Below are positions 1,458 through 63,363 of a stretch of 64,000 bases of DNA, piece by piece. Numbering within the stretch: the first letter of the stretch is position 1; each line of letters begins with the position of its first letter. Source of the DNA: Clostridia bacterium (GTDB taxonomy: Bacteria; Bacillota; Clostridia; Christensenellales; CAG-1252); the NCBI GenBank assembly GCA_017444385.1, contig JAFSWQ010000008.1, positions 5,004-69,003 of the forward strand. Reading direction: 5' to 3'. A program made the translations under genes and the position numbers. The notes under the pieces are model-generated. The model did no database searches. It saw only the letters and a list, made by a program, of their open reading frames with translations, and was not told the DNA's origin.

Positions 1458-1691
1458 GGAAGAGATGTTTCGACTTCGCTCAACATGACGAATAAAAAAC
1501 CTCGCGAAGCGAGGCTCGAGCAAACGCAAAACGTTTGCGAGAAAGAGGAATAGGCAAGCAAAAACGAAATCATCGTTAGATGGTGAGTAAAAGCGCAGCC
1601 TATGACGAGTCGAAGGATCCCCTAACCAAGCGTAATTGCTTATATGAGATTCCAAAGCGGAAGAGATGTTTCGACTTCGCTCAACATGACG
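1458..1691 (+). repeat. repeat cluster: A - T1 - A
   Basis: A unit GGAAGAGATGTTTCGACTTCGCTCAACATGACG at 1458-1490 and 1659-1691. T1 module (CCTCGCGAAGCGAGGCTCGAGCAAACG...GTCGAAGGATCCCCTAA) at 1500-1625. Confidence 0.9.
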
Positions 1692-3766: not shown

Positions 3767-3979
3767 GCACGTATCGAATTGCGGAAACCCGAGCGAAGCG
3801 AGGCTCGAGCAAACGCATAACGTTTGCGAGAAAGAGGAATAGGCAAGCAATAACGAAACCACCGCAGATGGTGAGTAAAAGCGAAGCCTATGACGAGTCG
3901 AAGGATCCCTTAACGCGAAGCATCAAGTATTAATAAAAGTATATGCGGAAGAGATGTTTCGACTTCGCTCAACATGACG
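3767..3979 (+). repeat. repeat cluster: T1 - A
   Basis: T1 at 3767-3922, with a degenerate left end and the tail CCCTTAACGCGAAGCA. A unit at 3947-3979. Confidence 0.9.
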
Positions 3980-8183: not shown

Positions 8184-8216
8184 GAAAGAAAAAGCGTTTG
8201 GTAGACTTAATAGTTA

Positions 8217-8778
8217 TTCCTTTACGAAAACCTTTTGGGTTTTCTCGATTGCTCACCTCGTTCGCGTAAAAATATCAGTACGTAATTCCGACCAACTTCG
8301 AGAAATTACAAATAATAGCACGTCATCTTTAACAGCAAAACCCGAGCGAAGCGAGGCTCGAGCAAACGCTTAACGTTTGCGAGAAAGAGGAATAGGCAAG
8401 CAACAACGAAACCATCGTAGATGGTGAGTAAAAGCGAAGCCTATGACGAGTCGAAGGATCCCCTTAAAAGAGGTAACTATCTTATAAAACTATCTTAAAT
8501 CGGAAGAGATGTTTCGACTACGCTACGCTTCGCTCAACATGACGAGTAAATTATATTAGTACCGTCATAGTGAGAAGGAATAACCCGAGCGAAGCGAGGC
8601 TCGAGCAAACGCAAAACGTTTGCGAGAAAGAGGAATAGGCAAGCAACAACGAAACCATCGTAGATGGTGAGTAAAAGCGAAGCCTATGACGAGTCGAGGG
8701 ATCCCCTAACGCGAAGCAGTGATAATCTTTCATATCGTTCAAATCCGAAGAGACGTTTCGACTACGCTCAACATGACG
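8217..8778 (+). repeat. repeat cluster: T2 fragment(-), degenerate S, then tandem [T1 - A][T1 - A]
   Basis: T2 fragment 8217-8266 (reverse orientation). Degenerate S 8278-8309. T1 8318-8466. A 8502-8544 (with a 9-nt internal duplication). T1 8559-8718. A 8746-8778. Confidence 0.9.
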
Positions 8779-19038: not shown

Positions 19039-19097
19039 TATGGGTGAAATTAAAAACAAAGAAAGCTTTATGTAGAAAAATATAAGTAGTCTAAATC

Positions 19098-19193
19098 GGT
19101 AGAGACGTTTCGACAGGCTCAACTCGTCACGACTTTCGCTTTTTATTCGTTGAGAAAAATTCTCAACTTCATTTTTGCTCGGTCGTTCCTCTT
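19098..19193 (-). repeat. T2 module, partial
   Basis: GGTAGAGACGTTTCGACAGGCTCAACTCGTCACGACTTTCGC...GTTGAGAAAAATTCTCAAC...GCTCGGTCGTTCCTCTT. Matches the first ~95 nt of the full T2 copy at 27323-27462. Confidence 0.85.
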
Positions 19194-19293
19194 GCGAAGT
19201 AAGTTATTATACGAGCTTCAGCGAGTAAGATAATTTGTAAAGTCAAGTGATCAATTTTAGCCATACTAGACCTTTCTATACTATTTTCTTTAT

Positions 19294-19647
19294 GAGCGAA
19301 GCGAATTCCGGAAGTTTGCACCCTTCCGCCATAGGCGGGAGCAAAGGGGGATGGACCGCTTCCGAAGCAGTCTCAAACTGCGACGAAGTGGTGGGGGTTT
19401 TAAGAGAGAGTATCACGTTATTAAGAATCGTAAAATACGAAAGCATTAGGATTTTTAGAGACTAATGTCTTGTACGGAATAAACGTTTTGATATTTTTTT
19501 TGGTAAATTCGGTAATACCGAGTGCTAATTCAAAACCCCCGACCTTCCGTCGAGCTAAAGCTCTTTGGGAACGTCCCCTCCCCCTTTGCCCGCTTGAATC
19601 CCAGATTCTTCACTAAAGGGTGCAAACTTCCGGACTCGCCGAAGCTC
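19294..19647 (+). repeat. L element copy 1 (~354 nt, long imperfect fold-back; possible structured RNA or MITE)
   Basis: About 90% identical to 26898-27249. Arms pair: CCGGAAGTTTGCACCC with GGGTGCAAACTTCCGG, GCAAAGGGGGA with TCCCCCTTTGC, GGGGGTTTT with AAAACCCCC. Local hairpins occur in each arm. Confidence 0.85.
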
Positions 19648-19703
19648 GTGAGATTAAAAAAGACAAAGAAAGTTTTTATGTAAAAAAATAATTAGTCTAA
19701 ATC

Positions 19704-19963
19704 GGTAGAGATGTTTCGACTACGCTCAACATGACGAAAAAATAAGAGTACGTCATCTTTAACAGCAAGCCCGAGCGAAGCGAGGCTCGAGCAAACGCTT
19801 AACGTTTGCGAGAAAGAGGAATAGGCAAGCAACAACGAAACCATTGTAGATGGTGAGTAAAAGCGAAGCCTATGACGAGTCGAGGGATCCCCTAACGCGA
19901 AGCAGCGGTAATCATTTAAGTATTTTTATCGGTAGTGACGTTTCGACTTCGCTCAATATGACG
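19704..19963 (+). repeat. repeat cluster: A - T1 - A
   Basis: A 19704-19736, T1 19748-19904, A 19931-19963. Confidence 0.9.
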
Positions 19964-20028
19964 ATAAAAATAACACTCTTAATAAAAAGTCCGTCATACT
20001 CTCGCCTTGACGAAAATAATATTCAATT

Positions 20029-21270
20029 ATGACGGAAGAATATTTTTTGATAAAGCAAAGCAGAATATGCGGGGAAGTCGTCCCTCAAGGAAGTAAAAAC
20101 GCGGCGTTACCGCTCATCGCCGCTTGCGTGGAATGTCGCGGGCGTTACGTTTTGAGAAACGTTCCCGACATCGAGGACGTCAAAACCCTTATAAAAATTT
20201 TTTCAAATTACGGCGTAAAATTTACCTTTCGTAATAACGAATTGTCGATAGATTCAAGGGAATTGCGCTCTTCGGTCGAGTCAAGCGAAGAAGAAGAGAA
20301 ACTTCGAGCCTCGTCCTACCTTATCGGCGCGATAATTCCCTCTAATAAGCGGCTCGTTCTGTCTCCGCCGGGCGGTTGCAAATTGGGTGATAGACCTCTC
20401 GATATCCACTTCGACGTTTGCCGTAGTTTAGGCGTTACGGTTAGAATAGAGGATAAACTGTATTTCGAGTGGGATCAAGAAGGCTCGCGTAAAATAAACC
20501 TACGATTCCCGTCGGTAGGGGCGACGATAAACGCTATTATGCTCGCCGCTTCCCTCGAAAAAGAAACCCTCATAGTAAACGCCGCGCCCGAGCCCGAAGT
20601 TGACGAGGTGATTTCCTTTTACCGTTTAACGGGCGTAAAGATCGAGAGAGAAGGGGAAAGCATTCTTATTTTCGGCAAAGAAAACAAAAAAGAGATAGTT
20701 TACGCCGTCCCTTTCGATAGGATTGTATGCGGCGATCTAATGCTTTTAGCGGCGGCAACGAAAGGGGAATTGCTCATAAAAGGGGTGGATTTTCAACAAG
20801 AGGCTGCTTTAATCGGTAAATTTTCTCTAACCCCTTGCCAAATAAGGTATTATTATGATAGAATATATATTCGGAATAGTGGGAGAGTCTGCGGTAACGT
20901 AATTACCGCCCCTTATCCGTATTTCCCTACCGATCTTCAAGCCCAATTCGCCGCCGCCTCGGTTGGCTCGGGCGGTAGTTGCCGAATATGCGAACACGTC
21001 TTCGGTTCAAGATTCGCCTATTTCGAAGAACTTGAAAAGATGGGCGCAAAGGGAAAAATAGACGGCAACGAATTGACTCTCGAGAGATCCGCTTTGACGG
21101 GTGCCACCGTGACCGCCAAAGATTTAAGAAGCGGTATGGCGTTAACTATCGCGGGGTTCGCCGCGCGTGGATATACGAAAGTTTACGGTCTTCGTTATTT
21201 GGACAGAGGGTACGAGAATTTAGTTCGAGTCCTCACTTCCATTAACGGGGATATAAAGAGGATAGAATGA
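20029..21270 (+). CDS. murA: UDP-N-acetylglucosamine 1-carboxyvinyltransferase
   Basis: 413 aa. Active-site loop PPGGCKLGDRPLDIH with the catalytic Cys. Confidence 0.85.
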   Translation: MTEEYFLIKQSRICGEVVPQGSKNAALPLIAACVECRGRYVLRNVPDIEDVKTLIKIFSNYGVKFTFRNNELSIDSRELRSSVESSEEEEKLRASSYLIGAIIPSNKRLVLSPPGGCKLGDRPLDIHFDVCRSLGVTVRIEDKLYFEWDQEGSRKINLRFPSVGATINAIMLAASLEKETLIVNAAPEPEVDEVISFYRLTGVKIEREGESILIFGKENKKEIVYAVPFDRIVCGDLMLLAAATKGELLIKGVDFQQEAALIGKFSLTPCQIRYYYDRIYIRNSGRVCGNVITAPYPYFPTDLQAQFAAASVGSGGSCRICEHVFGSRFAYFEELEKMGAKGKIDGNELTLERSALTGATVTAKDLRSGMALTIAGFAARGYTKVYGLRYLDRGYENLVRVLTSINGDIKRIE

Positions 21271-22100: not shown

Positions 22101-22300
22101 GGGATATTTCGACTTCGTTTCACTTCGCTCAATATGACGATATCTAAACAGTACGTCATACTAAACTAGGAGATCCGAGCGAAGCGAGTATCGAACAAAC
22201 GCAAAGCGGTTGTGAGAAAGAGGAATAGGCAAGCAAAAACGAAATCATTGTAAGATGATAAGTTATAGCGAAGCCTATGACGAGTCGAAGGATCCCCTAA
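22101..22300 (+). repeat. repeat cluster: A - T1
   Basis: A 22101-22139 (variant with an internal duplication and an ATAT/ATAT stem). T1 22151-22300 (diverged copy). Confidence 0.85.
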
Positions 22301-22393
22301 ATAATAATACCTAAAATTATAAAAATTTATAAACAAATTCCGAGCAAAATCTCAAGAAATGCTCTAATTATAATTTAAACTAATGAGGTTGTT

Positions 22394-24774: not shown

Positions 24775-24828
24775 AGTAAATTAACTGCGATTATTCGCAT
24801 TGATTTAATTTGGCTCAAAAATTTTACT

Positions 24829-25092
24829 CGTCATGTTGAGCTTGTCGAAACATCTCTTCCGATTGAGATAATCAAATAAGCAAACACTGCTTCGCGTTAG
24901 GGGATTCCTCGACGATGCTCGGAATGACGGTACTAATATAATTTACTCGTCATGTTGAGCTTGTCGAAACATCTCTTCCAATTTGGAACCTCATATAAGA
25001 GATTACGATTGGTTAGGGGATCCCTCGACGTTGCTCGGGATGACGTACTGATATTTTCTCGTCATGATGAGCGAAGTCGAAACATCTCTTCC
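24829..25092 (-). repeat. repeat cluster in reverse orientation: A - S - A - S - A
   Basis: A 24829-24860, S 24888-24933, A 24948-24979, S 25013-25048, A 25060-25092. All are reverse complements of the forms seen elsewhere. Confidence 0.9.
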
Positions 25093-25186
25093 GGTTGAGA
25101 TAATTAAACAAGCAAAAGGTTTTCGAGAAAGTCGACAAGAAAACGGTTGATAGATTAAATTCTTCCGTTTTCTTTTTTTATTCCCA

Positions 25187-26002: not shown

Positions 26003-26672
26003 GGTTTTTAGGTTATACGATAACCAAACCGATTACGTTTTCGGTATGGCTTTGCCCCAACCTTTAACGAGCGACGAGGAAAAGATGGTTTTGGAAAGAT
26101 TCAAAAAAGGGGACGAGTCGGCTCGAAAGGAACTTATCGAACGCAACTTACGCCTCGTCGTTTATATCGCGAAGAAATTTGATGGTAGCGTTCCCGACAA
26201 TTCCGAACTTGTCTCGATCGGCGCGATGGGGCTTATCAAAGCGGTAAATAACTTCGATCCCGACAAGAATATCAAGCTTGCGACCTTCGCTTCGCGTTGT
26301 ATAGAAAACGAAATACTAATGTATTTGCGTAAGGTAGTGAGAAGGAAGCGTGAAGTCTCTTTGGACGAGCCTATTAATACCGACTTCGAGGGCAACGAAT
26401 TGCTTTTAGGCGACGTTTTAGGCACCGACCCCGACGCAGTGAGTATCGAAGCCGAAAAGAAGTCGGAAATAGAATATTTATATATAAGCCTTCAAAAGCT
26501 CAACTCTCGCGAAAGGCTTATACTTTCTCTTCGCTACGGTCTTGACGGCAAAGAAGAGAAAACTCAAAAAGAGATAGCGGATATGTTGGGTATCTCGCAA
26601 AGTTACATATCCCGCCTCGAAAAGAAAGTCCTTTTGAAGTTAAAGAGAGAATTGGTGAAGTACGTTTGTTAA
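25968..26672 (+). CDS. sigE: RNA polymerase sporulation sigma factor SigE (pro-sigma-E)
   Basis: ORF 25914..26672. The likely start is ATG 25968, after GAGGTGG. Pro-sequence MILARLKRFFIKVF, then ALPQPLTSDEE and IERNLRLVVYIAKKF, RCIENEILMYLR, GISQSYISRLEK. These closely match B. subtilis SigE from memory. Confidence 0.9.
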   Translation: MILARLKRFFIKVFRLYDNQTDYVFGMALPQPLTSDEEKMVLERFKKGDESARKELIERNLRLVVYIAKKFDGSVPDNSELVSIGAMGLIKAVNNFDPDKNIKLATFASRCIENEILMYLRKVVRRKREVSLDEPINTDFEGNELLLGDVLGTDPDAVSIEAEKKSEIEYLYISLQKLNSRERLILSLRYGLDGKEEKTQKEIADMLGISQSYISRLEKKVLLKLKRELVKYVC

Positions 26673-26707
26673 CGTGCGCGGGAAAGGTGACGAATAAACA
26701 ATAAAAG

Positions 26708-26855
26708 CACGTCATTATAAATTGGGAAAACCTCGCGAAGCGACGCTCGAACAAACGCACGCGTTTGTGAGAAAGAGGAATAGGCAAGCAACCACGAAAC
26801 CATCGTTAGACGGTGAGTAAAAGCGAAGCCTATGACGAGTCGAAGTATCCCCTAA
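26708..26855 (+). repeat. T1 module
   Basis: GCACGTCATTATAAATTGGGAAAACCTCGCGAAGCGACGCTCGAACAAACGCACGCGTTTGTGAG...GTCGAAGTATCCCCTAA. A truncated A end lies at 26681-26697. Confidence 0.9.
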
Positions 26856-26897
26856 CAATGAGTATAAAAAATACGTTCTCTCGCCGTAGGCGAAAAT

Positions 26898-27249
26898 GAG
26901 CATAGCGAATTCGAGAAGTTTGCACCCTTCCGCCATAGGCGGGAGCAAAGGGGGATGGACCGCTTCCAAAGCAGTCTTAAACTGCGACGAAGTGGTGGGG
27001 GTTTTAAGAGAGAGTATCACGTTATGAAGAATTGTATAATACGAAAGCATTAGGATTTTTAGGGACGAACGTCTTGTACGGAATAAACGATTCGATATTA
27101 TTCGGAAAATCGGTAAAAACGAGTGCTAATTCAAAACCCCCGACCTTCCGTCGAGCCTTTGGCTCTTTGGGAACGTCCCCTCCCCCTTTGCCCGTTCGAA
27201 TCGCAGATACTTCACTAAAGGGTGCAAACTTTCGGAAGTCGCTACGCTC
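26898..27249 (+). repeat. L element copy 2 (~352 nt)
   Basis: Second copy of the element at 19294-19647, with the same long-range helices. Differences cluster in the apical AT-rich part and in hairpin loops. Confidence 0.85.
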
Positions 27250-27322
27250 GCAGAAAAACGTTTCAAGAGGGCGTATCTACCGTTTCAAATAAAGAATGTT
27301 TCTAAAAATATTTATAAAATGT

Positions 27323-27462
27323 GGAAGAGATATTTCGACAGGCTCAACTCGTCACGACTTTCGTTTTTATTCGTTGAGAAAAATCCTCAACTTCATTTTT
27401 GCTCGGTCGTTCCTCTTTCTCGAAAACCTTTTGGGTTTTCTCGATTGCTCACTTCGTTCGCG
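27323..27462 (-). repeat. T2 module, full length
   Basis: Its reverse complement aligns block-for-block with T1. The shared blocks are CGAGAAAGAGGAA, TGACGAG and GTCGAA. The three helices have different sequences but remain complementary. Confidence 0.85.
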
Positions 27463-27473
27463 TTTTTATAATA

Positions 27474-27863
27474 GCACGTCATCCTGAGCAACGTCGAAGG
27501 ATCCCCTAACGCGAAGCGGTGGTTGCTTATAAGAGTATACAAATCGTAAGAGATGTTTCGACTACGCTCAACATGACGAGTAAAACATTTTAGTACGTCA
27601 TAGTGAGAAGGAAATAACCTCGCGAAGCGAGGGTCGAGCAAACGCTTGCGTTTGTGAGAAAGAGGAATAGGCAAGCAACCACGAAACCATTGTTAGATGG
27701 TGAGTAAAAGCGAAGCCTATGACGAGTCGAGGAATCCCCTAACAAGTGGTAATACACTTATAAAGAACAATTCGGTTGAGATGTTTCGACTACGCTCAAC
27801 ATGACTATTAAAAAGAGATGTTTCGACTACGCTCAACGTGAAGATAAAAAGAGCCGTTTCGAC
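27474..27863 (+). repeat. repeat cluster: S - A - T1 - A - A - partial A
   Basis: S 27474-27517, A 27546-27578, T1 27593-27742, A 27774-27805, A 27813-27843, partial A 27851-27863. Confidence 0.9.
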
Positions 27864-27879
27864 TAATTTAACCGAACGC

Positions 27880-28653
27880 TTAACTCTCTAAATACGCTCT
27901 TAACTTTTTGACCGCGCTGTTTTCAAGGCGGGAAACCTGCGCTTGCGATACGTTGCAGCTTTTGCTAACTTCGCTTTGCGTTTTGCCTTCGTAGTAACGT
28001 AAATCTATTATTTGTCTTTCTTTTTCGTTTAAGGTAGATAGAGCCGCCTCTAAATCGATTCTATCAACCCAATTGCTTTCTTTTTCGGTTTTATCGGCTA
28101 TTTGATCCATAACGAGGACGTCCTCGCCGTCCGAAAAAGCGGGTTCGTAGAGGGATATTGGATCGGATATAGCGTCCAACGCTTCGCAAACGAGGGAAAC
28201 GGGTATGTCTACGTCGGCGGCTATCTCGGTTAGAGTCGGCTCTTTGAGCCCCAACTCGGAAAACTTGTTCCGTGATTGCATCACCTTATACGCGACGTCG
28301 CGCATCTTTCGCGATACCTTTACCGAAGTGTTTTCTCTTAAAAACCTGCGTATCTCGCCGATAATCATAGGTACGGCGTAAGTGGAAAACATAACCCCGT
28401 ATTTTAAGTTGAAATTGTTGTAGGCTTTCGTTAGCCCCAAACACCCCACTTGAAAAACGTCGTCCGCAAGAGAGGGCTGAAAGTCGAACCTGTGAAGAAT
28501 GGAAAGAACTAATCTTTGGTTGCAATACAAAAAGCGTTTTCTCGCTTCGTCGTCACCGTTTTTGGCTCTTGCGATGAGTTCCGATGATTCTTTATTCGAT
28601 AGTTTTGGGATTTTATCGGTATCAACGCCCGATATAAAAACTTTGTAATTCAT
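27880..28653 (-). CDS. sigG: RNA polymerase sporulation sigma factor SigG
   Basis: ISGVDTDKIPKLSN, FSTYAVPMIIGEIRRFLR and VSQAQVSRLE match forespore SigG from memory. SigF cannot be fully excluded. Confidence 0.8.
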   Translation of the reverse strand: MNYKVFISGVDTDKIPKLSNKESSELIARAKNGDDEARKRFLYCNQRLVLSILHRFDFQPSLADDVFQVGCLGLTKAYNNFNLKYGVMFSTYAVPMIIGEIRRFLRENTSVKVSRKMRDVAYKVMQSRNKFSELGLKEPTLTEIAADVDIPVSLVCEALDAISDPISLYEPAFSDGEDVLVMDQIADKTEKESNWVDRIDLEAALSTLNEKERQIIDLRYYEGKTQSEVSKSCNVSQAQVSRLENSAVKKLRAYLES

Positions 28654-28726: not shown

Positions 28727-29010
28727 GGAAGAGAGGTTTCGACTACAAACGCAGTATTTTTTCATTGAACCACGAATTGTCGTGAGCGGGTTATAGTACG
28801 TAATCCTAAATTGGAAAAACCTCGCGAAGCGAGGCTCGAGCAAACGCAAAACGTTTGAGAGAAAGAGGAATAGGCAAGCAACAACGAAACCATCGTTAGA
28901 TGGTGAGTAAAAGCGAAGCCTATGACGAGTCGAGGGATCCCCTAAAAAGGGGTAATTCAATTATTAAATCACTAATAGGATGAGATGTTTCGACTTCGCT
29001 CAACATGACG
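28727..29010 (+). repeat. repeat cluster: truncated A - T1 - A
   Basis: Truncated A 28727-28746, T1 28796-28945, A 28978-29010. Confidence 0.9.
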
Positions 29011-31884: not shown

Positions 31885-32197
31885 GCAAGTCAACCAGGCG
31901 ATCGCACGCAAGTGAGGAAAGTCCGAGCACCACAGGACGAGAGCGCCGGCTAACTACCGGTGGAGGCGACTTCAAGGAAAGTGCAACAGAAATATACCGC
32001 GGAAACGCAAGGGTGGAAAGGCGAGGTAAGAGCTCACCGCTTGAAAGGTAACTTTCGAGGCAATGTAAACCCCGCTCGGTGCAAGTAAGGGAGGCTAAAG
32101 CTGTCCGCCACTCCCGAATACGCTAGAACCTATCGGTAACGATAGGTCAAGAAAGATGACCGCCAAATACAGAACTCGGCTTATAGATTGGTCTTGC
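31885..32197 (+). ncRNA. rnpB: RNase P RNA, bacterial type A
   Basis: P4 strands GAGGAAAGTCCGAGC (31913-) and ACAGAACTCGGCTTAT (32170-). Type A blocks AGTGCAACAGAAA, GGTAAGAGCTCACCGC and GTAAACCCCGCTCGGTGCAAG. 5' GCAAG pairs with 3' CTTGC (P1). A promoter and a terminator flank it. Confidence 0.92.
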
Positions 32198-32202
32198 AAA
32201 AA

Positions 32203-62989: not shown

Positions 62990-63363
62990 GTACGTCATCC
63001 TGAGCCTGTCGAAGGATCCCCTAACGCGAAGCAACGTTTACAAGGAAGAGATGTTTCGACTACTCTCAACATGACGAAAATAGGTTTATAGTACGTCATC
63101 CCGAGCATCGTCGAGGGATCCCCTATCAAGAGGTAACTATTACTTTCTATGCTTTATTCGGAAGAGATGTTTCGACTACGCTCAACATGACGAATAAATA
63201 GAAGAAAGTCATACTTAACAACAAAAATCCGAGCGAAGCGAGGCTCGAGTAAACGCACAGTGTTTGCGAGAAAGAGGAATAGACAAGCAAAAACTAAATC
63301 ATCGTGAGATGATAAGTAAAAGCGAAGTCTATGACGAGTCGAGGGATCCCCTAACGCGAAGCA
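62990..63363 (+). repeat. repeat cluster: S - A - S - A - T1
   Basis: S 62990-63033, A 63044-63076, S 63091-63125, A 63170-63202, T1 63218-63363 (copy carrying compensatory stem changes). Confidence 0.9.

What the first reader, a model, noticed from the sequence alone, without database searches (positions are those of the whole stretch)
27323..27742. T1 and T2 modules share single-stranded blocks but have three fully re-coded helices, which indicates a selected fold
The reverse complement of T2 (27323-27462) aligns with T1 (for example 27593-27742 or 8318-8466). T1 reads CTCG-AG-CAAACG-loop-CGTTTG-CGAG-AAAGAGGAA-TAGGC-AAGCAACAACGAA-ACCATC-GTA-GATGGT-GAGTAAAAGCGAA-GCCTA-TGACGAG-TCGAAGG. T2 reads TCG-AG-AAAACC-CAAAA-GGTTTT-CGAG-AAAGAGGAA-CGAC-CGAGCAAAAATGAA-GTTGAG-GATTTTTC-CTCAAC-GAATAAAAACGAAA-GTCG-TGACGAG-TTGAGCCTGTCGAA. 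The helix pairs change as follows: CAAACG/CGTTTG becomes AAAACC/GGTTTT, TAGGC/GCCTA becomes CGAC/GTCG, and ACCATC/GATGGT becomes GTTGAG/CTCAAC. Each keeps complementarity, while the junction sequences (CGAGAAAGAGGAA, TGACGAG) are unchanged. This pattern is expected for a functional structured nucleic acid of about 125 nt with a three-helix architecture. It is not expected for neutral repeat decay. I do not recognise it as any RNA family I know.
Basis: seen in the sequence. Interest (0 to 1): 0.85.

Follow-up and report, generated by a model that had tools for sequence, protein, structure and literature searches.

The report
Overgrown REP-type hairpin repeat, two subfamilies
T1 and T2 are two diverged versions of one ~130-base non-coding repeat whose hairpins have been kept by compensating mutations, but it is built from, and always attached to, a widespread class of small bacterial hairpin repeats (CGTC-tagged REPs), so it is best read as a new, unusually elaborate REP-type repeat and not as a stand-alone RNA gene.

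Summary
T2, read on the minus strand, is homologous to T1. A covariance model built from T1 copies alone finds T2 at 82-90 bits. On 12 T1 and 2 full T2 copies, 93% of cells pair and 16 base pairs change on both sides.

- P1 is only partly re-coded (2 of 7 pairs).
- A fourth covarying hairpin (HP0) lies upstream.
- Three or four tandem G.A mismatches sit inside the helices.

The module matches no Rfam family. It was not found in GTDB genomes, JGI metagenomes, viral contigs, plasmids, phages or the nearest relatives.

The context changes the reading. Every copy sits in mosaic arrays of CGTC-tagged REP hairpins, a superfamily that my scan found in many phyla. The "unchanged junctions" are largely REP parts. 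TGACGAG(T) is the complement of the REP tag and also ends every S-type REP. AAGAGGA parallels the purine tail beside S. CGAG-A closes HP1.

T1/T2 therefore look like hypertrophied REP dimers in two subfamilies with alternative complementary stems, which is a known REP property. Copy number varies between strains by whole units.

I cannot settle whether the fold acts as single-stranded DNA or as RNA. I lean towards DNA. Verdict: a new variant of a known kind, of moderate interest.

The parts
27347..27463 (-). T2 module, full copy. HP0 is 27447-27461, HP1 27418-27444, purine linker AAGAGGAA 27410-27417, HP2 27355-27409 (P3 27373-27391), tag block TGACGAGT 27347-27354.
   Evidence: A T1-only model scores it at 82.5 bits. 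Coordinates of the parts come from alignment A5.
27323..27348 (-). S-type CGTC-REP body (GGAAGAGATATTTCGACAGGCTCAAC on the + strand) fused directly to the 3' end of T2. Its own tag is replaced by the T2 tag block.
   Evidence: Read from the sequence. BLAST to module S. The same junction is seen in the second full T2 copy in L119.
27477..27506 (+). 'Short' CGTC-tagged REP: CGTC-AT-CCT-GA-GC-AACG-TC-GA-AGG-AT-CCCC.
   Evidence: The same hairpin type is found in at least 120 loci of many phyla.
27548..27580 (-). S-type CGTC-REP. On the minus strand it reads CTCGTCAT-GTT-GA-GC-GTAG-TC-GA-AAC-AT-CTCTT.
27596..27601 (+). CGTCAT tag ('H') upstream of T1. It is the inverted partner of the ATGACG at the 3' end of T1.
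27618..27727 (+). T1 module. HP0 is 27618-27632, HP1 27634-27659, linker 27660-27667, HP2 27668-27719 (P3 27686-27701), tag block TGACGAGT 27720-27727. It is followed by a REP 3' half, CGAGGAATCCCC, to 27739.
26729..26858 (+). T1 copy downstream of sigE.
   Evidence: 148.9 bits.
8340..8712 (+). Two T1 copies (8340-8469 and 8583-8712) with an S REP between them. They lie between two minus-strand genes. The strain variant L119 carries an extra T2+T1 unit here.
8189..8260 (-). Truncated T2 copy, HP0+HP1 half only.
19105..19228 (-). Truncated T2 copy, linker+HP2+tag half, fused to an S body.
   Evidence: 34.9 bits. 97.7% identical to T2 over 86 nt.
1498..1628 (+). T1 copy (tig-clpP spacer). It has no H tag and directly follows an S REP.
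3787..3916 (+). T1 copy (clpX-lon spacer).
19769..19898 (+). T1 copy (ftsW-murA spacer).
22173..22303 (+). T1 copy (ftsQ-ftsA spacer), the most diverged T1.
28818..28948 (+). T1 copy (divergent sigG / PRC-barrel spacer).
63227..63357 (+). T1 copy (efp-polA spacer). It carries compensated pairs G-C to A-U in P2a and C-G to U-A in P3.

Best explanation
T1 and T2 are two subfamilies (about 60-65% identical) of one ~130-nt non-coding module. The module is a hypertrophied derivative of CGTC-tagged REP hairpins. It lives only inside BIME-like REP arrays in the intergenic regions of this uncultured spore-forming Clostridia genome.

Anatomy on the purine-rich strand:
- HP0: a REP-core mini-hairpin, CC-[G.A/A.G or U-A/C-G]-GC-GAA-GC-GA-GG.
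- HP1: 2 bp, a tandem G.A, 7 bp, and a 4-5 nt loop.
- The linker AAGAGGA.
- HP2: a long interrupted arm made of P2a, P2b, P2c, a tandem G.A and P3.
- The block (A)TGACGAGT, followed by a REP body.

HP2 with its flanks has the same layout as the S-type REP: purine tail, a stem beginning A-T, then the tag complement ATGACGAG. With the CGTCAT tag upstream, a T1 unit has the outline of a REP dimer with its tags on the outside.

Shown:
- The intrastrand pairing is under selection.
- The purine-rich strand is the folding strand, because G.A tandems and GNA loops become pyrimidine mismatches on the other strand.
- Copies are gained and lost as whole units.

Inferred: the module spreads and persists like REP/BIME elements. 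The fold is needed in a single-stranded state. Most likely this is single-stranded DNA on the lagging-strand template, serving as substrate for a trans-acting REP-mobilising activity (a Y1/HUH-type or still unknown enzyme), with unequal recombination changing array length. Where the module is co-transcribed, the same hairpins would also act as RNA structures, as a secondary effect.
For: Homology and selected fold.

HP0:
- It covaries: C-G to G-C and G-C to A-U.
- Its tandem G.A is replaced by U-A/C-G in 4 of 12 T1 copies.

REP context:
- There are 18 GTCAT-NNN-GAGC-loop-CGAA hairpins in the window against 0 expected.
- The same hairpin occurs in at least 120 loci from many phyla, where about 3 would be expected by chance (my arithmetic).
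- It fits the described CGTC REP superfamily: tag, A-T-first stems, dimers with tags outside, no known transposase (PMC3733652).

Shared tag: ATGACGAR occurs 33 times against 5 expected, at the ends of both S and T1.

Dispersed-repeat behaviour:
- 12 T1 and 4 T2 copies lie in about 90 kb.
- Core identity is 91% while the flanking 40 nt are 56-58% identical, against 49% for shuffled sequence.
- Two truncated half-copies exist.
- Whole-unit indels of 128 nt and 336 nt distinguish strains.
- The module was not detected in the relatives' loci, and the orthologous spacers are compact where the contigs extend.

Lean towards DNA:
- All 12 T1 copies are on the + strand, the G-rich strand, taken here to be the lagging-strand template. 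This includes the three copies between minus-strand genes.
- The REP core GCGNAGC is the extraordinarily stable DNA mini-hairpin, whose RNA counterpart is much weaker (PMC13037366). That heptamer occurs 45 times against 15 expected.
- No consistent promoter or terminator flanks the sense strand.
Against: - No Y1/HUH transposase or any other mobile-element gene was seen in the ~95 kb I could read. The literature reports no dedicated enzyme for CGTC REPs.
- No clean insertion or empty-site pair was found. Both polymorphisms are explained by recombination between repeated units, or by assembly collapse.
- T2 is always on the opposite strand to T1. I explain this by which partner of the REP dimer carries it, but it weakens a simple lagging-strand argument.
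- Among T1 copies, G.U cells (7) outnumber A.C cells (2). Eight of 12 T1 copies lie downstream of co-oriented genes. Both points also fit an RNA role.
- HP2 is far outside REP dimensions.
- The internal purine loops of HP2 are conserved between T1 and T2 with no REP counterpart. They hint at a specific ligand or partner that this explanation does not name.
Confidence: 0.55

Rival explanations
1. The module is a cis-acting structured RNA domain. It would be co-transcribed in operon spacers and UTRs, and its hairpin array would protect or process mRNA (a REP/BIME-like exonuclease barrier, or a bcr1- or BOX-like RNA). Its conserved purine loops, including the SD-like GAGG in the linker, would bind a protein or the 30S subunit.
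For: - The features are strand-specific.
- G.U cells (7) outnumber A.C cells (2) among T1 copies.
- RNA folding z-scores are -2.8 to -3.9 for T1.
- Eight of 12 T1 copies lie 3' of co-oriented genes.
- The two full T2 copies (27337 in the window and the L119 copy) and the truncated copy at 8189 are sense to minus-strand genes.
- A weak promoter-like site lies just upstream of the T2 sense strand, 27497 to 27468, minus strand.
- REPs and bcr1 are reported to be transcribed and to show compensatory change.
Against: - Three T1 copies lie antisense between minus-strand genes, and one T2 copy (19105) is antisense inside the dcw operon.
- There is no conserved promoter and no terminator.
- The GNA triloop cores are DNA-optimal and weak as RNA.
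- T2 folds with only z = -1.7 as RNA.
- A module confined to one species and not detected in the relatives' loci is unlike a housekeeping regulatory RNA.
Confidence: 0.28
2. The module is a single-stranded-DNA signal on the lagging-strand template. It would be a chromosomal analogue of phage and plasmid single-strand initiation or origin signals (G4-type ssi, sso), multi-hairpin ssDNA of similar size that recruits primase or RNA polymerase, or resists SSB coating.
For: - All 12 T1 copies are on the + strand, taken to be the lagging-strand template.
- The module has three hairpin arms over ~130 nt and contains 2-3 GCGAAGC mini-hairpin heptamers per unit.
- Mini-hairpins occur at ssDNA priming sites and bind SSB poorly (PMC13037366).
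Against: - T2 has the opposite orientation in 4 of 4 copies.
- There is no similarity to plasmid or phage DNA.
- A chromosome has no known need for such signals.
- Copy number is polymorphic and the module was not detected in the relatives' loci.
Confidence: 0.07
3. The module is a small self-cleaving ribozyme or another catalytic or ligand-binding RNA carried by a repeat. The alternative long-range pairing GGCUCG/CGAGUC would give a three-way junction.
For: - The MFE of most T1 copies closes a three-way junction with junction strands of 1, 12 and 3 nt.
- Invariant purine blocks are typical of catalytic cores.
Against: - There is no Rfam hit even at E up to 10.
- The closing helix is not maintained: T1_22173, T1_27616, T1_26729 and T2 all break it without compensation.
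- The two alternatives differ by only about 2 kcal/mol.
- The 'core' blocks are explained as REP tag and tail motifs.
Confidence: 0.03
4. There is no selected function. T1 and T2 would be decaying copies whose hairpins were swapped as blocks by recombination or template switching, so that complementarity comes for free.
For: - P3 could be exchanged as a unit.
- The arrays are clearly recombinogenic.
Against: - The two strands of P2a are about 45 nt apart, flank conserved loops, and all four pairs are re-coded.
- Independent compensated pairs occur within T1: A-U at 16/34 twice, A-U at 50/98, and U-A at 66/82.
- The core is 91% identical while the flanks are near random.
Confidence: 0.05

Closest known systems
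CGTC-tagged REP superfamily (Di Nocera, De Gregorio and Rocco 2013, PMC3733652), which includes Neisseria dRS3 and Rickettsia RPE-4/RPE-6
   Same: - An unpaired CGTC tag next to a stem that starts A-T, T-A.
- A short tail.
- Dimers with the tags outside.
- Intergenic location.
- Subfamilies with alternative complementary stems.
- No associated transposase.

The S and 'short' modules fit all of these. The 3' block of T is the tag, and its HP2 stem starts A-T next to the tag.
   Different: - REPs are 20-40 nt with stems of 8-9 bp and loops of 4-5 nt. The T module is ~130 nt with three arms, interior loops and a 51-55 nt HP2.
- The window's REPs carry tandem G.A mismatches.
- The purine-rich loops of T lie on the strand opposite to the tag-bearing strand of HP2.
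BIMEs of E. coli (mosaics of REPs with other conserved motifs) and REPIN/RAYT systems
   Same: - Arrays of alternately oriented REPs are interleaved with other conserved modules.
- The number of units is variable.
- The fold is a single-strand hairpin.
- The orientation logic is that of elements acting on the lagging-strand template.
   Different: - BIME extra motifs are short, and some bind IHF. None is a 130-nt covarying multi-hairpin.
- REPIN arms pair with each other, whereas here each arm folds on itself.
- No RAYT gene was seen.
bcr1 of the Bacillus cereus group and pneumococcal BOX elements (reviewed in PMC3184786)
   Same: - Firmicute intergenic repeats of about 100-300 nt.
- A modular or double stem-loop architecture.
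- Compensatory changes that keep the structure.
- Lineage-specific bursts.
   Different: - bcr1 has 5-bp target duplications and MITE-like behaviour.
- BOX has boxA/B/C modules and a candidate IS for mobilisation.
- There is no sequence or tag similarity to T1/T2.
- Transcription is shown for those elements and not for this one.
Mini-hairpin DNA d(GCGNAGC) (Hirao and colleagues, PMC13037366)
   Same: - HP0 and the REP cores contain exactly this heptamer.
- It recurs on the 3' strand of HP2 and after the tail.
- Its only substitution in the HP2 copy is at the free N position (T1_1498, GCGCAGC).
   Different: That work concerns isolated oligonucleotides and phage origin hairpins. No link to REP families or to a larger module has been described, as far as I could find.

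Membership tests
CGTC-tagged REP superfamily (applied to the S and 'short' modules) | Unpaired CGTC (or TGTC/CCTC) tag at one end of the hairpin | tested here: met
   18 GTCAT-led hairpins in the window. The base before GTCAT is C in S (TCGTCATGTT) and in 'short' (ACGTCATCC).
CGTC-tagged REP superfamily (applied to the S and 'short' modules) | Stem of 8-9 positions whose first two pairs are A-T and T-A; loop of 4-5 nt; short unpaired tail | tested here: met
   ATCCT-GA-GC / GC-GA-AGGAT and ATGTT-GA-G / C-GA-AACAT, with loops of 3-6 nt and tails CCCC / CTC. Two of the stem positions are G.A mismatches, not Watson-Crick pairs.
CGTC-tagged REP superfamily (applied to the S and 'short' modules) | Mostly dimers with the tags outside; intergenic; no flanking transposase | tested here: met
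   'Short'(+) ... S(-) pairs at 27477-27580, 62994-63077 and others. All lie in intergenic spacers. No transposase domain was seen in the gene lists.
CGTC-tagged REP superfamily (applied to the T module itself) | Tag plus an A-T-first stem | tested here: met
   The reverse complement of the T1 3' end reads CTCGTCAT-AGGC..GCCT-AT-TCC. For T2 it reads CTCGTCAC-GAC..GTC-GT-TCC. The same 8-mer ATGACGAR ends S and T1.
CGTC-tagged REP superfamily (applied to the T module itself) | Size of 20-40 nt; a simple stem of 8-9 bp and a loop of 4-5 nt | tested here: not met
   The T module is ~110-130 nt with three arms. HP2 alone is 51-55 nt with interior loops. It is therefore a derivative, not a REP in the strict sense.
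REPIN/RAYT system | Two inverted REPs whose arms pair with each other, plus a single-copy Y1 transposase (RAYT) flanked by the same REPs | tested here: inconclusive
   The arms (S versus 'short', HP1 versus HP2) are not mutually complementary. No PF01797-type gene occurs in ~95 kb. The rest of the genome could not be read.
MITE | Terminal inverted repeats of 15-30 bp and target-site duplications | tested here: not met
   Only a 6-7 nt inverted CGTCAT/ATGACG pair is present, and it is missing in T1_1498 and degenerate in T1_3787. No flanking direct repeats were seen.
Any Rfam 15 family, including self-cleaving ribozymes, T-box, and IS605/HEARO-type RNAs | A covariance-model match | tested here: not met
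   The only gathering-level hit in the window is RNase P. Nothing relevant appears at E up to 10 over 26600-27900, or at E up to 1 over 19040-20030.
Protein-coding sequence | An open frame with codon-like conservation | tested here: not met
   Stops occur in all three + frames. The two open minus-strand frames shift between copies. Helix positions change in pairs, not at third codon positions. No protein in 5.8 billion matches any frame.
ssi/sso single-strand origins of phages and plasmids | Orientation-dependent ssDNA priming activity; conserved RS_B / CS-6 motifs (ssoA) | not testable with these tools
   Only the size, the multi-hairpin layout and the mini-hairpin motifs are alike. There is no plasmid or phage similarity.

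The most novel reading that the evidence does not exclude
The T module is a functional single-stranded nucleic-acid device and not just a passenger. One example: it is the enlarged recognition or processing substrate of the still unidentified machinery that spreads CGTC-type REPs, which have no known transposase. Another: it is a new protein-binding or catalytic RNA whose conserved pseudo-symmetric purine loops (AGCAAMAAYGAA / GARUAAAARCGAA) form a specific binding site.
Probability: 0.12. Interest if true: 0.75.

Novelty: new variant of a known kind. Interest (0 to 1): 0.42.

Why it matters
CGTC-tagged REPs are spread over many phyla, and nobody knows how they move or what they do. This genome shows that such hairpins can be elaborated into a 130-nt, three-arm module that keeps the REP tag and tail. 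The module has split into two subfamilies, and every helix has been re-coded by compensating changes. That gives a larger and more information-rich handle than a 25-nt hairpin for two open questions. The first is whether REP-type folds are selected as single-stranded DNA or as RNA. The second is what recognises them. On the practical side, the module explains contig breaks and spurious ORFs in assemblies of this lineage.

Tried and rejected
Searches for relatives that found nothing:
- Three pattern scans of GTDB species genomes returned only coding or rRNA chance hits. Each was checked by reading the sequence or by the covariance model.
- One JGI metagenome scan gave two chance hits.
- One viral scan gave none.
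- blastn against plasmids and phages gave none.
- The covariance model run on 120 REP-bearing loci of other phyla gave none.

Spurious-ORF trick: six-frame peptides of T1 and T2 were searched against 5.8 billion proteins to reach other contigs. No hits.

Relatives reached through FtsZ homologues at 62-75% identity show the same gene order, compact spacers and no T module.

Hypotheses considered and dropped:
- Hammerhead-like reading of CUAUGACGAG: C3 is missing and stem II is implausible.
- K-turn reading of the G.A tandems: there is no 3-nt bulge.
- A closing helix CGUCAU/AUGACG around T1: it is absent in T2 and in T1_1498.
- The three-way-junction helix GGCUCG/CGAGUC: it is broken without compensation in four sequences and is energetically equivalent to the local pairing.
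- A linker pseudoknot with downstream pyrimidines: possible only in T2.
- A conserved promoter upstream of T1: none.
- Literature search by sequence or peptide strings of the REP: nothing.
Full report
**Setting**

The window is chromosomal DNA of an uncultured, spore-forming member of the Clostridia.
- It carries tig-clpP-clpX-lon, the dcw cluster, ftsA-ftsZ, spoIIGA-sigE, sigG, sigK-like, nrdR, RNase P RNA (31886-32200), a 2370-aa GH94 protein, rpsB-tsf-pyrH-frr, and nusA-infB to efp.
- GC skew is positive throughout and nearly all genes are on the + strand. I therefore take the + strand to be the leading-strand sequence, which makes it the lagging-strand template.
- The source contigs are ENA and Logan metagenome assemblies of several samples, 99.9-100% identical to the window.
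- No transposase, integrase or reverse transcriptase appears in the ~95 kb I could read.

**Checking the observation**

- T1 cores lie at 1498-1628, 3787-3916, 8340-8469, 8583-8712, 19769-19898, 22173-22303, 26729-26858, 27616-27745, 28818-28948 and 63227-63357. All are on the + strand.
- T2 is full-length at 27330-27463 and truncated at 19105-19228 and 8189-8260. All are on the - strand.
- Neighbouring DNA of the same organism adds two T1 copies and one full T2 copy (L119).
- A covariance model built from the 12 T1 copies alone finds the two full T2 copies at 82.5 and 90.3 bits. The homology is therefore not a matter of eye.
No shuffle reaches this, and slid controls pair at 27-46%.
- T1 and T2 are identical at 18/44 paired positions and at 40/55 unpaired non-loop positions, p = 0.002.
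- P2a and P3 are completely re-coded. P1 changes at 2 of 7 pairs.
- Independent compensations also occur among T1 copies: G-C to A-U in HP1 twice, with a G.U intermediate; G-C to A-U in P2a; and C-G to U-A in P3, with a U.G intermediate.

**Refined anatomy**

In 4 of 12 T1 copies the 5' GA is UC, which turns the tandem G.A/A.G into U-A/C-G. In T2 two other pairs are compensated (C-G to G-C, G-C to A-U).
- *HP2.* It continues inside P2a with a 2-bp P2b. Then comes a 2-bp P2c, which covaries C-G to U-A in T2. Another tandem G.A follows, and then P3.
- *Total.* Counting all of this, 16 pairs covary and 93% of cells pair.
- *Folding strand.* The G.A tandems and GNA loops exist only on the purine-rich strand, so that strand is the folding strand.
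- *Alternative closing helix.* A long-range helix (GGCUCG/CGAGUC) would close a three-way junction. It is within 2 kcal/mol of the local pairing, but it is broken without compensation in four sequences.

**What surrounds it**

Every copy is embedded in arrays of two small hairpins.
- 'Short' is CGTC-AT-CCT-GA-GC-loop-TC-GA-AGG-AT-CCCC on the + strand.
- 'S' is the same design with stem ATGTT/AACAT, mostly on the - strand.
- There are 18 such hairpins in the window against none expected.
- The 'short' version is not private to this genome. By my arithmetic about 3 would be expected by chance. The hits come from Acidobacteriota, Chloroflexota, Bacteroidota, Clostridia, Planctomycetota, Patescibacteria, Cyanobacteria, Proteobacteria and others, often as inverted pairs. 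The loops are mostly GNAG.
- Rfam has no family for it.
- It fits the CGTC-tagged REP superfamily of Di Nocera et al. 2013. That description includes an unpaired CGTC tag, stems that begin with A-T pairs and loops of 4-5 nt. It also includes a short tail, dimers with the tags outside, subfamilies with alternative complementary stems, and no associated transposase.

**Reinterpreting the 'unchanged junctions'**

- ATGACGAR occurs 33 times in the window against 5 expected. It lies at the end of every S copy and at the 3' end of every T1. So TGACGAG(T) is the complement of the REP tag.
- Read side by side:
  - S = GGAAGAG|AT-GTT..AAC-AT|GACGAGT
  - T1 HP2 = AAGAGGA|AT-AGGC..GCCT-AT|GACGAGT
  - T2 HP2 = AAGAGGA|AC-GAC..GTC-GT|GACGAGT
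- HP2 therefore occupies the place of a REP body, with a much expanded interior. HP0 is a REP core, and HP1 is a REP-like hairpin with an extended stem.
- With the CGTCAT tag that precedes most T1 copies, a T1 unit has the outline of a REP dimer with its tags outside.
- T1 sits on the '+' partner of the dimer and T2 on the '-' partner (S). This explains their opposite strands.
- The parts with no REP counterpart are the purine loops of HP2. AGCAAMAAYGAA and GARUAAAARCGAA resemble each other.

**Behaviour as a repeat**

- T1 cores are 91% identical on average. The 40 nt on either side are 56-58% identical, against 49% for shuffled sequence.
- Two T2 copies are complementary halves.
- Between assemblies of the same organism, a 128-nt unit (tail + spacer + S + short) and a 336-nt unit (spacer + S + T2 + T1) are present or absent. 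Each is bounded by long identical repeats. This looks like unequal recombination, or possibly assembly collapse.
- The closest relatives I could reach (FtsZ 62-75% identical) have no T module in the loci fetched. Those whose contigs extend past ftsZ (L116, L124) keep the gene order with spacers of 30-125 nt where the window has 1.2 kb.
- No family member turned up in GTDB species genomes, JGI metagenomes, viral contigs, plasmids or phages.

**DNA or RNA?**

This is not settled.

For DNA:
- All 12 T1 copies lie on the strand I take to be the lagging-strand template. This includes the three copies between minus-strand genes.
- The REP core GCGNAGC is the extraordinarily stable DNA mini-hairpin. 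Its RNA counterpart is much weaker, and it occurs at ssDNA priming sites (PMC13037366). The heptamer is three-fold enriched here.
- DNA-parameter folding reproduces the arms.
- There is no consistent promoter or terminator on the sense strand.

For RNA:
- G.U cells outnumber A.C cells, 7 to 2, among T1 copies, although three of the seven may be one event.
- Most T1 copies follow co-oriented genes.
- REPs and bcr1 are reported to be transcribed.

I lean towards a single-stranded-DNA role with RNA effects as a by-product, but only weakly.

**Comparison and verdict**

- The S and 'short' hairpins are members of the CGTC REP superfamily.
- The T module shares the family's tag, tail and A-T-first stem but fails its size and shape criteria. 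I therefore file it as a derivative: a hypertrophied REP dimer inside a BIME-like mosaic. It is not a REP proper, a MITE (no long TIRs and no target duplication), a REPIN (the arms do not pair and no RAYT was seen) or any Rfam family.
- Compensatory change between subfamilies is known for REPs and for bcr1.
- This is a new variant of a known kind and is moderately interesting. The interest lies mainly in the fact that it enlarges a mysterious, very widespread hairpin into something big enough to study.

Noticed in passing
window 26896-27249 and 19296-19634: A second repeat family ('E344'). Two + strand copies are 91% identical, with three nested long-range inverted repeats. The RNA MFE is -149.5 kcal/mol, z = -9.2. 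There is no Rfam hit. The element is bounded by REP-like GAGCGAAGCGAA motifs, and each copy lies within 100 nt of a T2 copy. It is a candidate large structured repeat or MITE.
   Followed up: partly
L127-L246 (120 loci of many phyla); window 27477-27506 and others: The CGTC/GTCAT-tagged REP hairpin is near-identical across distant phyla. Its centre is the heptamer GCGNAGC (83 of 153 loops read GNAG), which is the 'extraordinarily stable DNA mini-hairpin' of Hirao. The REP paper I read does not mention this link.
   Followed up: partly
L120 9613-9740 versus L119/window 1610; L119 16580-16915 versus window 8465: Assemblies of the same organism from different samples differ by whole repeat units of 128 nt and 336 nt, the latter carrying a full T2 and a T1. 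The cause could be unequal recombination or assembly collapse.
   Followed up: yes
window 24828-25131: One REP array (three S and two 'short'-type hairpins) has the opposite orientation to all the others and carries no T module.
   Followed up: no
window 27468-27497, minus strand: A promoter-like site (TCGACG-18-TG-TATTAT) is formed by the 'short' REP and the linker. It points into the sense strand of T2. The same linker precedes the T2 copy in L119. It matches 9 of 12 consensus positions only.
   Followed up: no
L113 11440-11656: The nearest long-contig relative (FtsZ 73% identical) ends, just after ftsZ, in a different hairpin repeat (units of ..ATATAACTT-GC-loop-GC-AAATATAACT..). All three of its assemblies break there. 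This suggests that related lineages each have their own repeat families.
   Followed up: no
window 27880-28653 (-), also L116 and L124: sigG is encoded on the strand opposite to spoIIGA-sigE, and a sigK-like gene is also inverted. The arrangement is conserved in the relatives.
   Followed up: no
window 26715-27050 (-), 27393-27674 (-): Gene callers place ORFs of 93-111 aa across T1 and E344 on the minus strand, where two frames of T1 are open. They have no homologues and no domains, so they are almost certainly spurious.
   Followed up: yes
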